Positions 1 to 17,215 of a stretch of DNA of 64,000 bases are shown piece after piece. The stretch is taken from assembly GCF_016433145.1 (NCBI RefSeq), contig NC_058133.1:327845335-327909334 (forward strand), given 5' to 3'. A program made the position numbers and the translations under genes. Under the pieces are notes generated by a model that was not told the DNA's origin, searched no databases, and worked only from the letters and a program-made list of their open reading frames with translations. How positions within the stretch are numbered: the first letter of the stretch is position 1; each line of letters begins with the position of its first letter. The stretch is from Gracilinanus agilis (lineage: Eukaryota).

Positions 1-70
1 CCCCCATTCCTTCCTTCCCTCCTTCCTTCATCCCTCCCTCCCTATCCCCATTCCTTCCTTCCTTCCTTCC
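1..70. repeat. (CCTT)n-type simple repeat
   Basis: Degenerate cctt/ccct tetramer run at the window start. Confidence 0.9.
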
Positions 71-414
71 TATGGATTACTTATGGACATGATTCCATTC
101 TGAAACAAATGAAATCATTTCCACCATAATCTGATTCACTCTATCTTAGGTGATCTAATGGCTCACCTTATTGCCACTAGCAAACTTAAAATGAGTACAC
201 AATCAGCTTAGCCCATTGTCTGCCTCCTTGGTAGCAGGGATTGAAGGCATGTTTTACCACACCTAGCTTTTACCACAGTTTCTACAGAATTGATTTTACC
301 AAGCTCATACCCAAAAGTAGCCTAGCTGCTAGATGAGTTTGAGTCTCATCTACCACTGGACTGAATCCCAAAAATTTTTCCTTAGGGCCACAAAACACGG
401 CATGAACTACATAC

Positions 415-12509: not shown

Positions 12510-12740
12510 AAGTCATTTTCAGTTGTGTCCAACTTCCAGCTCCTTTTAGGGTTTTCTTGGCATGGGTACTGGTTTGTCATTTCCTTCTCTAACTCATTTT
12601 ACAGATGAAAAAACGGTGGTAAGCAGGGTTAAAGTGACTTGTCCAGGGCCACACACCTGATAAGAATGTGAGACCTGACTTGAACTCATGAAGATGGGTC
12701 TACTTGTTTCCAAGCCTAGAGCTAAATCTATTGCACCATC
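12510..12740 (-). mobile_element. MAR1-type CORE-SINE
   Basis: gtcattttcagttgtgtccaac...gggttttcttggc...cattttacagatgaaaaaac. Its end is the target of the element at 12741-13060. Confidence 0.85.
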
Positions 12741-13060
12741 TGTAGGAATATAGTTAGGGATGGTGTGGTTTTCTAGGGTTAGTTGAAAGAAGGGGATTTT
12801 GAGATAAGCCTTGGGAAAGGATTCTGTGTAAGAAAGGAATTGTGGGTCTACAACTGAAAATAACTGAACTTCACTTCCTTCTTGGATTTGATCTGAGCTG
12901 AGAGTGGTTTTTGTCTCTCTGCCTACAATTCCTTTCTTACCCAGAATCCTTTTCCAGGGCTTATCTCAAAATTCCCTTCTTTCAACTAACCCTAGAAAAC
13001 CAGACCATCACTAACTATATTCTGTTCCATGTTGCTGAGAGGGGTTCAATAATTCCTACA
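12741..13060. mobile_element. Foldback (palindromic) LTR-like or MITE-like element, 320 bp
   Basis: Termini tgtaggaat...attcctaca; 4-bp TSD catc (12737-12740 and 13061-13064); inverted arms 12746-12846 and 12922-13022 with 7 mismatches in 101 bp; 75-bp spacer. Confidence 0.85.
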
Positions 13061-13589
13061 CATCTACAGGTGGGTATGCTAAAATTCATAATGACATGAT
13101 ACTGAATGAACATTAAAAAGATCCATATTTCTGTGGCTTTGCTAAAAATTCAAGGGCAAACCATTTACAGCAGCCCAAGAATATTTCTTGTTTCTGTTCT
13201 GGCCAACCTTGGCTGGTATGGTGATAAAGATAATACAGTAAAAACTACAACAATTATATTAGGCTTTCAGTCTATTGTCAGAAATTTACTGAGATGTGAA
13301 GGATAGAAAATCTTAGCATGAATGAGAATGAACCACTAGATTCAGAATAACCCAAATATGTAGTGGAGGTGGGGGTGGAATTGCTTAAAGAAAACCAAAC
13401 TAAAGAAGGCCAACTAAAATGTAACTTGGATATATGTTAGTAAAAAAAATCCTTTTATAAGCCAAACAGAAGCTCTTAATTCTGGGTACTAAAACATGGT
13501 GAATGAAGAGAAATTAAAAGCAATTACTCCCACCCCCTCCACTGCAAAGGGAATAGATTTTGAATTTCTTTATTTAGAACTGGCTCTCT

Positions 13590-13810
13590 GATTTCATTAG
13601 CATAAGGAACTCCCTGGGAGGAAACTCCTTCTACCACGTCAGACCAACCTGTTCTGCAATTTATAGTCTTAATAAGATGCCAGGACCACTGAAAGTTTGC
13701 ATGACATGCCCAAGTTCACACAGCGACTGTGAACCAGAAGTGAGACTTGAATCCAAGTATTGATGACTTCAAGGCCAGCTCTCCATTCCTTCTGCATACT
13801 GCCCTTTCAG
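13590..13810 (-). mobile_element. Marsupial CORE-SINE relic (Mar3/WALLSI-like tail)
   Basis: ggaactccctgggaggaaactccttctacc...gcccaagttcacacagc...gacttgaatcc. Confidence 0.6.
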
Positions 13811-15179: not shown

Positions 15180-16520
15180 CCACAATATACTCGATTTCTG
15201 TCTGTCACCCAATGCTGACCTCAGCTGGAAAAAAATAACTCACTGTGATTTTCCCTTAGATTTCTCAATCACAACTACATCTGGTATTCTTTCTAAGTCT
15301 TTGTTGGAGTAATTGTGGGGAGAACTGAACAGTATTTCTTCCTCCTACTCTTCCATCTTTGCTGGCACTCTATCATATGCTCTGCAAGAATATTCTAAGC
15401 CTTTTTAACCCAAGTCACTTACAGTATCTCCTCTCTACTCCCTTTCTGGAGAATACTTTATCAGAAAAAGAGAATATCCACCAACCCTGTTAAGTCTTGC
15501 ATTCTCTCATCTTTATCNNNNNNNNNNNNNNNNNNNNNNNNNNNNNNNNNNNNNNNNNNNNNNNNNNNNNNNNNNNNNNNNNNNNNNNNNNNNNNNNNNN
15601 NNNNNNNNNNNNNNNNNNNNNNNNNNNNNNNNNNNNNNNNNNNNNNNNNNNNNNNNNNNNNNNNNNNNNNNNNNNNNNNNNNNNNNNNNNNNNNCTGTTT
15701 GTCATCATTACTGGCTATTTCTAGTAAAGAAAAAAGTGTAAACTAATTGAAAACTCCTCATTTAAATTCTTAAACTATAATCCCATTTATCATTTCAATT
15801 TCACAATCACTCATACCCTCAGGGCCTTATCATCTAGCCCCTCTTAAGCCTCCTTTCCTGGATACTCTTTTATTTTCCATCCACTAAGTATGGATACCCC
15901 TTACTTCTCTATCATGAACCCTCTTCTCCTCTCTTGATCTTTCTCTTGGTGTTTGTATCAATTCCCATGGATTTAATTATCATGCCTTCCCAGAAAGGGA
16001 TTTTTCAGATTTATATATCTATACTTTATGTATCTTGCATGCATCTATTTATATTTTGCCATTTTCCTGAATTCCAAGTTGCCCGGTAGAAACCTGTACC
16101 TGTACGCATCAGTATCTAAAAATTACTTCATTCAAAATAGAATTACCTTCCCTCTACACTCACCTTCTACTCTAAATGTCCCTGTTGCCATTAAGAGTAG
16201 CATTAGTCTTCTAGTAACTTGTATGGACTACCTTAGAATTATCTCTTGTTCTTTCTGTCCTCCTCCCATATCCAGTTAGGCAAGTCATGATGATTATTCC
16301 TCTATAAGATCTTTCACAGCCTCTCTCTACTCAGATAAGTTACTGCCCTAATGGAGAGACCATCAACGTGTCATACCTGTGTTATTAGAGAACCTCACAG
16401 TTGGACTTCCTGCCTCCAGTCAACATTGATTCCATTCATTCACCACATAGCTTCCATATTAATATTCTTTAGAAACAGATTTGATCATGTTCCCAAATCA
16501 AAAATCTTCATTTGCCCTTT
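15180..16520 (+). mobile_element. Fragmented L2 LINE (spans a gap)
   Basis: cccatggatttaattatcatg and later L2 ORF2-like blocks; heavily decayed. Confidence 0.65.
15518..15694. other. Assembly gap (N run)
   Basis: 177 consecutive N. Confidence 0.99.
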
Positions 16521-16544
16521 GTGCAAGATGGCATGCATAGAAAA

Positions 16545-17215
16545 AATTTAAAAACACCCTTCCCTCAAAGAACTTACATTATAATTAGGGTAGTTAAAAT
16601 ATAAATAGATGCATGCAAGATACATAGAGAATAGATAAAAGCCAGCCTTAGAGAGGAAGGCTTTTGCAGGTTGGGGCAGAAGATGATTTTTGAAGTGAAT
16701 CTTAAAGGAAGCCAGTGATTCTAAGAAGAGGTAAAGAGAAAGGGCATTCCAGGCATGGAGAACACCCAGTATAAAGTCATGAGATGGGAGATGAGATGGG
16801 GAGGGATAGAGTATCCTGTGTGAGAAGTAGAGAGTAAGAGCAATTAGCTCGATTGTATCATGTATTGGTGGGAGATGTCTATAAATAAAATAGATACATC
16901 TCCATCCTAAATGTTCACATGGACTATTTGTGCCCAATCTGTGGTAGATCCTTCTAAGTTCTTAATTTTCTGACCTGCCACAGTTGGACACACCATACAC
17001 TGGTCCTGACATAGGAATGCCATTTTGGTCCTTTTTGACCGAAATGGCTAAAACTATTCTCCTCCATACCCATTGGTTTTGGAGGAGAATAGTTTTCAGA
17101 AGACCGGTACGATAGGAAAGAGCCAAATGGTGAAAAGAATTAAATGTCATACAAAGGACTTTATTGTTGAATCTATAGATAATAAAGAGTCACTAGAATT
17201 TATAGACAAGGAAAT
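16545..17215 (-). mobile_element. L2 LINE fragment interrupted by an RTE stub
   Basis: Purine-rich antisense L2 (gggcattccaggcatggagaac...gataggaaagagccaaatggtgaaaagaattaaatg). Confidence 0.7.
16893..17049 (+). mobile_element. RTE LINE 3' end (marsupial RTE)
   Basis: Encodes DYLCPICGRSF*...CHSWTH (terminal C2H2-like motif of RTE ORF2), then the gccattttggtcctttttg tail. Confidence 0.8.

What the first reader, a model, noticed from the sequence alone, without database searches (positions are those of the whole stretch)
12741..13060. 320-bp foldback element with TGT...ACA ends, 101-bp inverted arms and a 4-bp TSD
Seen: arms 12746-12846 and 12922-13022 are reverse complements with 7 mismatches and no indels around a 75-bp spacer; both ends read tgtaggaat; catc is duplicated on both flanks; it sits in the end of a MAR1 SINE. 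The right arm has 33 extra bp bounded by a gaat/attc microhomology. Knowledge: 4-bp TSDs with TG..CA ends fit ERV1/Gypsy integrases and also Ginger DNA transposons (TGT ends, long TIRs), but ordinary LTRs lack 100-bp inverted arms. Inference: the palindrome integrated as one unit, so it is either an LTR derivative carrying the same end twice or a non-autonomous Ginger-like MITE, which would be unexpected in a mammal. If transcribed it would form an ~100-bp dsRNA stem; all 4 transition mismatches give G-U pairs on the + strand, which is only a weak hint.
Basis: partly seen in the sequence, partly recalled or inferred. Interest (0 to 1): 0.72.

Follow-up and report, generated by a model that had tools for sequence, protein, structure and literature searches.

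The report
Retroviral LTR with two left ends
This hairpin-shaped DNA is the front end of an endogenous retrovirus's terminal repeat joined to an inverted copy of itself; such two-front-end pieces recur in two retrovirus families of this genome and likely arise when reverse transcriptase turns back onto its own product before integrase likely pastes it in.

Summary
Observation confirmed; Ginger/MITE reading not supported. The element is nt 1-190 of a ~735-bp LTR followed by the reverse complement of nt 106-1, so it has the U3 (front) end twice. The LTR belongs to a class I (gamma-like) endogenous retrovirus. Such U3-U3 foldbacks with direct 4-bp TSDs recur: 12 of 98 U3-anchored copies in this family and 6 of 28 in a second LTR family, against 0 of 100 U5-U5 forms (pooled p=2e-5). 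Most junctions differ, about half show short microhomologies, and copies scatter over the LTR tree, so this is not an amplified MITE. Two copies carry a whole LTR plus primer-binding site before turning back. The extra 33 bp are a later nested fragment of the second family, absent from a relative's orthologue. Best mechanism (inferred, 0.6): plus-strand turn-around during reverse transcription, then integration through two U3 ends. Ten paper searches found no description; Repbase/Dfam could not be checked. The scan noted a similar 135-bp palindrome elsewhere in this genome (e1-9295652).

The parts
12737..12740 (+). Left 4-bp target-site duplication (CATC)
   Evidence: direct TSD matches 49 of 60 positions in 15 family foldbacks versus 21 of 60 if read inverted
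12741..12932 (+). Forward copy of LTR nt 1-~190 (U3 end); includes the left arm and the 75-bp spacer, which is ordinary LTR sequence
   Evidence: 92% to a single solo-LTR copy (L011) nt 1-192; 27 of the 30 loci fetched match only this part
12922..12932 (.). Junction: ~7-11-nt inverted microhomology that already exists in ordinary LTR copies (nt ~97-107 versus ~182-192)
   Evidence: both halves present in 73 of 89 full-length copies
12922..13022 (-). Inverted copy of LTR nt 106 to 6 (right arm)
   Evidence: 95% to L011 nt 6-106, minus strand
13023..13051 (+). Later nested 29-bp fragment of the 5' end of a second (~900-bp) LTR family, flanked by ATTC (13019-13022 and 13052-13055)
   Evidence: 96% over 25 nt to family-2 LTR nt 8-32; a contig of organism B joins 13018 to 13052 with 4 ambiguous letters
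13052..13060 (-). Right terminus = exact reverse complement of LTR nt 1-9 (second U3 attachment end)
13061..13064 (+). Right 4-bp target-site duplication (CATC)

Best explanation
The element is the U3 end of a class I endogenous-retrovirus LTR joined through a short microhomology to an inverted copy of the same end; it likely formed when plus-strand DNA synthesis turned back during reverse transcription, and was likely inserted by the viral integrase using two U3 ends. Shown: what it is made of, the parent family, recurrence, direct 4-bp TSDs, the U3-only bias, both arms from one LTR subtype, and the later nested insert. Inferred steps: (1) the PPT-primed plus strand stops at nt ~190 and its 3' end pairs with nt ~97-107 of itself or of a displaced plus strand; (2) reverse transcriptase copies back to nt 1; (3) the second strand is made by PPT re-priming with strand displacement, or by mutual priming of two plus strands; (4) integrase joins both CA ends with its usual 4-bp stagger. 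Each copy would be a separate dead-end insertion with no function of its own.
For: Parent: most hits are ~735-bp TG..CA elements with 4-bp TSDs. Some are followed by a PBS-like motif and a shared internal region that carries Gag_p30, RVP, RVT_1, RNase H, rve and MLVIN_C hits; a purine run precedes the 3' LTR in L177. Recurrence: 12 of 98 U3-anchored family-1 elements, 6 of 28 in family 2. Asymmetry: 0 of 70 and 0 of 30 U5-anchored loci are U5-U5 (p=0.0015, 0.009, pooled 2e-5). [quoted passage not shown] L321 (family 2) = whole LTR + PBS-like motif + ~210 nt of leader + inverted U3 of ~330 nt, TSD CTCA/CTCA. Arms agree at 43 of 44 polymorphic positions versus 61% for random copies, 0 of 20,000 shuffles. 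Foldbacks need 10 changes for 10 rows on the tree. Flanks are not mirrored (mean identity 0.25). PPT recycling and displaced plus strands ending 12 nt into the tRNA are described for Ty3 (PMC5371799, passages).
Against: No intermediate can be seen in a genome, and the second-strand step is unobserved. Arms share no excess of rare variants (2 versus 1.2 expected, p=0.35), so same-molecule origin is not shown, only same subtype; the six diagnostic columns are linked. Of 15 junctions, 4 are multi-jump or carry inserts (L006, L015, L052, L109), L139 has two jumps, and L034 and L035 overlap by only 2-3 nt, which fits host end-joining as well. The tree is mostly unresolved, starred branches force only 2 changes, and L001 and L003 sit in one clade. 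TSDs of L034 and L099 match at only 2 of 4, and those of L275 and L282 are poor. About 20 of the 98 U3-anchored copies are truncated with no identifiable right end. The empty site was not obtained.
Confidence: 0.6

Rival explanations
1. Two-end integration plus host repair: integrase joined the U3 ends of two viral DNAs (or of a tail-to-tail dimer) to one target site, and the inner ends were trimmed and joined by microhomology-mediated repair, or a long palindrome later collapsed at its centre.
For: Gives direct TSDs, U3 at both ends, arms of one subtype (co-packaged genomes) and microhomology or templated-insert junctions.
Against: Does not by itself explain 18 U3-U3 versus 0 U5-U5. No distal inverted U3 end in 20 truncated copies extended to 7-10 kb. 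L204 stops at the strong-stop length.
Confidence: 0.2
2. Post-insertion template switch in the host: a normal solo LTR was rewritten during replication or repair, the polymerase copying back to nt 1 and returning at the LTR's last TACA, which keeps the TSD.
For: LTR ends are short inverted repeats; junctions use inverted repeats already in the LTR; arms would match in subtype.
Against: Should yield U5-U5 equally (0 of 100). Needs skips of up to ~650 nt with exact return on 4 nt in 12 of 98 copies, and a skip of a whole provirus for L204 and L321.
Confidence: 0.12
3. Non-autonomous Ginger-like MITE, moved as DNA and amplified from a master copy.
For: TGTNR ends, ~100-bp inverted arms and 4-bp TSD fit Ginger (PMC2836005); three places share this junction.
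Against: The sequence is wholly LTR of an element with reverse transcriptase; lengths run from 99 to 808 bp with different junctions; L002 lies outside the starred clade that holds L001 and L003; 0 of 15 TSDs are CCGG/CCGT or TATA.
Confidence: 0.03
4. A hairpin kept by selection as a source of dsRNA or small RNA.
For: Very stable fold; 4 of 4 transitions are G-U type here; 30 G-U type versus 16 A-C type over 14 elements.
Against: Arm divergence fits neutral decay; the anchored left arm biases the 30:16 count; no Rfam match in the window.
Confidence: 0.05

Closest known systems
Class I (gamma-like, ERV1) solo LTRs
   Same: Same sequence source, TG..CA ends and 4-bp TSD.
   Different: No R or U5; U3 at both ends in inverted orientation; cannot arise by ordinary LTR-LTR recombination.
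Aberrant retroviral reverse-transcription products (HIV-1 asymmetric-LTR and inversion proviruses, PMC9278108, passages; dead-end plus-strand strong-stop DNA of Ty3, PMC5371799, passages)
   Same: Template switching by reverse transcriptase; displaced plus strands; defective DNA still integrated.
   Different: The passages read describe no product with two U3 ends; here such products form a recurrent germ-line class in two families.
Ginger1/Ginger2 DNA transposons (PMC2836005, passages and Discussion)
   Same: TGTNR termini, inverted repeats of 40-270 bp, 4-bp TSD.
   Different: No transposase, no amplification, other target sequences; the ends come from an ERV LTR.
Copy-back (snap-back) defective viral genomes (recalled, no call)
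   Same: Polymerase turns back and duplicates one terminus as an inverted repeat.
   Different: Here DNA, from a retrovirus, fixed in the host germ line.

Membership tests
Class I ERV (ERV1) LTR | TG..CA termini and 4-bp TSD | tested here: met
   72 of 89 full-length copies match at 3-4 of 4 TSD positions
Class I ERV (ERV1) LTR | Parent LTR flanked by PBS and PPT | tested here: met
   PBS-like TGG motif after the LTR in L117, L119, L178, L183; purine run before the LTR in L177; tRNA identity not tested
Class I ERV (ERV1) LTR | Internal gag-pro-pol of gamma type | tested here: met
   Gag_p30, RVP, RVT_1, RT_RNaseH_2, rve, MLVIN_C hits in 13 of 26 fragments scanned; one search found none in 42 other fragments
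Class I ERV (ERV1) LTR | env gene | tested here: inconclusive
   no env hit among the fragments scanned; copies are decayed
Class I ERV (ERV1) LTR | U3-R-U5 order in this copy | tested here: not met
   U3 twice, no R or U5
Class I ERV (ERV1) LTR | Match to a named Repbase/Dfam family | not testable with these tools
   no repeat library available
Ginger DNA transposon | TGTNR ends with 40-270-bp TIRs | tested here: met
   definition from PMC2836005
Ginger DNA transposon | Target preference CCGG/CCGT (Ginger1) or RTATAY (Ginger2) | tested here: not met
   0 of 15 left TSDs are CCGG, CCGT or TATA
Ginger DNA transposon | Autonomous partner with a transposase and no reverse transcriptase between the same TIRs | tested here: not met
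   the same ends bound an element with RT; no distal inverted U3 in 20 copies extended to 7-10 kb; a sample, not the whole genome
MITE | Many uniform copies from one master | tested here: not met
   3 places with this junction; 10 changes for 10 foldback rows; lengths 99-808 bp

The most novel reading that the evidence does not exclude
U3-U3 turn-around products are a general, overlooked by-product of retroviral replication, making up roughly 7-15% of insertions of some ERV families. They give a one-step route from an LTR element to a TIR-bounded element: L321 already holds internal viral sequence between 330-bp inverted U3 ends with a perfect TSD, so a turn-around after the integrase gene would yield a Ginger-like proto-transposon.
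Probability: 0.35. Interest if true: 0.8.

Novelty: new variant of a known kind. Interest (0 to 1): 0.6.

Why it matters
It is a fossil record of a side reaction in retroviral replication that can be counted in genomes. Bao et al. (PMC2836005, Discussion) call the chain of events from an LTR retrotransposon to a TIR DNA transposon unclear and suggest two chance neighbouring LTRs; these elements show TIRs, TGTNR ends and a TSD arising from one LTR end in a single insertion. They also supply ready-made long hairpins to the genome and can be mistaken for MITEs in repeat annotation.

Tried and rejected
Amplified MITE family: rejected. Mirror-image host inversion covering the flanks: rejected. The 33 bp as part of the original element or of the parent provirus: no match in the fetched proviral internals; rejected. 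Same-molecule origin by rare shared variants: no support. Pfam scan of the first internal fragments: no retroviral hit; one sub-threshold unrelated hit ignored. Expression: no RNA holder with a usable share listed; this says nothing either way. Empty site: no joint skipping the whole element among the 15 of 37 joints shown; question left open. Rfam: no match. Whether the window lies in a gene was not established. Paper searches gave no description of U3-U3 LTR foldbacks; most were seen as listings only. PMC5210030 mentions one fish ERV with an inverted 5' LTR (passages), a different structure. PMC5753468 has none of five terms. PMC12789967 and PMC3187697 passages add nothing on it. Earlier findings e1-2529402 and e1-2529727 are unrelated.

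Full report
Observation. The arms, spacer, ends and CATC duplication are as described, and the fold is far beyond chance (z=-18).

What it is made of. A search of the own genome scored 40 of 712 candidates. Of the 30 loci fetched, 27 match only nt 1-190 of the element; most continue into a ~735-bp element with TG..CA ends and a 4-bp TSD. Measured against one such copy, the window holds nt 1-192 forward (12741-12932) and nt 106-6 inverted (12922-13022). The spacer is therefore ordinary LTR sequence, and the overlap is a short inverted repeat already present in 73 of 89 full-length copies.

The parent is an endogenous retrovirus LTR. Of 8 matches to an LTR end followed by TGG, four share the downstream sequence. 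Longer stretches carry Gag_p30, protease, RT, RNase H, integrase core and the MLV-type integrase C-terminal domain (13 of 26 fragments; 0 of 42 in a first set). A purine run precedes the 3' LTR in L177. This fixes the orientation: the doubled end is U3. No env hit was seen.

Recurrence. An exact 5'-end pattern gave 136 matches, 100 listed, in 98 distinct elements, all inspected. Twelve, the window's copy included, have U3 at both ends; L002, L003, L015 and L204 are further cases found by other routes. Lengths are 99-808 bp. Direct TSDs match at 49 of 60 positions in 15 elements, inverted at 21 of 60, and flanks are not mirrored. Because such elements can be sampled at either end, they are about 7% of elements with this end. 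About 20 of the 98 are truncated with no clear right end; 20 loci extended to 7-10 kb showed no distal inverted U3.

A second family does the same. The extra 33 bp match the 5' end of another, ~900-bp LTR family. Among the first 30 of 1185 matches to that end (28 elements), 6 are U3-U3, plus L189 and L321. Four of the six TSDs are perfect and two are poor.

Asymmetry. U5-anchored controls gave 0 of 70 (of 94 matches) and 0 of 30 (of 190) U5-U5 forms: p=0.0015, 0.009, pooled 2e-5. Two of these control loci were themselves U3-U3: L204 (whole LTR, 11 nt of PBS-like sequence, inverted U3 59-1, TSD GTAT) and L321 (whole LTR, PBS-like motif, ~210 nt of leader shared with L315, inverted U3 of ~330 nt at 96%, TSD CTCA).

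Independent origins. Only three places share the window's junction. On a tree of 142 rows over 190 columns the 10 foldback rows need 10 changes; L002 lies outside a 100/98 clade that holds L001 and L003. The tree is otherwise poorly resolved, the bootstrap had not settled, and elements with under 150 aligned nt were left out. L001 and L003 differ in a terminal indel that segregates among ordinary copies, so separate origins are likely, not proven. Within elements the arms agree at 43 of 44 polymorphic positions (null 0.61; 0 of 20,000; 14 elements, 6 linked columns) but share no excess of rare variants (2 versus 1.2). Arm-arm mismatch is 70 of 878 (8.0%) against 10.2% to random copies.

The 33 bp. 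They are 29 bp starting with TGT, between two ATTC. A contig of organism B that covers the right flank (51 differences over 13052-13600) joins 13018 to 13052 with 4 ambiguous letters (one contig). The orthologue thus has the element's right end without the insert, so the insert is most simply a later nested insertion, perhaps the remnant of a longer LTR. The empty site was not obtained.

Mechanism. Shown: composition, recurrence, TSDs, U3 bias, same-subtype arms. Inferred: a plus strand begun at the PPT turns back at a short inverted repeat, onto itself or onto a displaced plus strand, and is copied to nt 1; the second strand comes from PPT re-priming or mutual priming; integrase uses both U3 ends. 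Only plus strands start exactly at U3 nt 1, which accounts for the bias, and repeated PPT priming with displacement is described for Ty3 (PMC5371799, passages). Junction overlaps are 7-20 nt in six elements and 2-3 nt in two; L037 is ambiguous, and six are complex or carry extra sequence, so two-end integration with host repair stays a real rival (0.2), as does post-insertion template switching (0.12). A MITE (0.03) or a selected hairpin (0.05) is unlikely.

Comparison and novelty. It looks like a Ginger in ends and TSD length (PMC2836005, passages and Discussion) but fails target preference, partner and amplification. It derives from an ERV1-type LTR but fails the U3-R-U5 order. Ten searches found no description; older subscription literature and Repbase/Dfam were out of reach, so it may be known there. 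Verdict: new variant of a known kind, interest 0.6.

Noticed in passing
L058 (first ~310 nt from the U3 end) and L078 (first ~520 nt): U3 end joined to a piece of the proviral 3' untranslated region (forward in L058, inverted in L078), ending at a cryptic ..ACA followed by the TSD: further aberrant integration forms.
   Followed up: partly
L092, L220, L224, L233, L248, L280: Mini-LTRs of about 39-157 bp that keep both ends, mostly with a recognisable TSD, but lack the middle.
   Followed up: no
L219: LTR whose first ~232 nt are inverted, the U3 end abutting nt ~234; resembles an autointegration product.
   Followed up: partly
L132/L142: Short non-coding provirus-like unit: LTR, PBS-like motif, ~750 nt of internal sequence, then a partial LTR.
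   Followed up: partly
L122/L123, L126/L127, L128, L222: One proviral locus with shared flanks occurs several times: a segmental duplication or redundant contigs.
   Followed up: no
window 16016-16637: 622-bp stretch with 42-nt terminal inverted repeats, 95% complementary, beginning and ending in TA; likely an ordinary DNA-transposon MITE.
   Followed up: no
window 12741-13060, run X21 (organism D): Next to no contigs lie on the element, while organisms A, B and C have many: family 1 seems limited to some lineages (absence not proven).
   Followed up: no
L314: Two family-2 LTR pieces directly in tandem.
   Followed up: no
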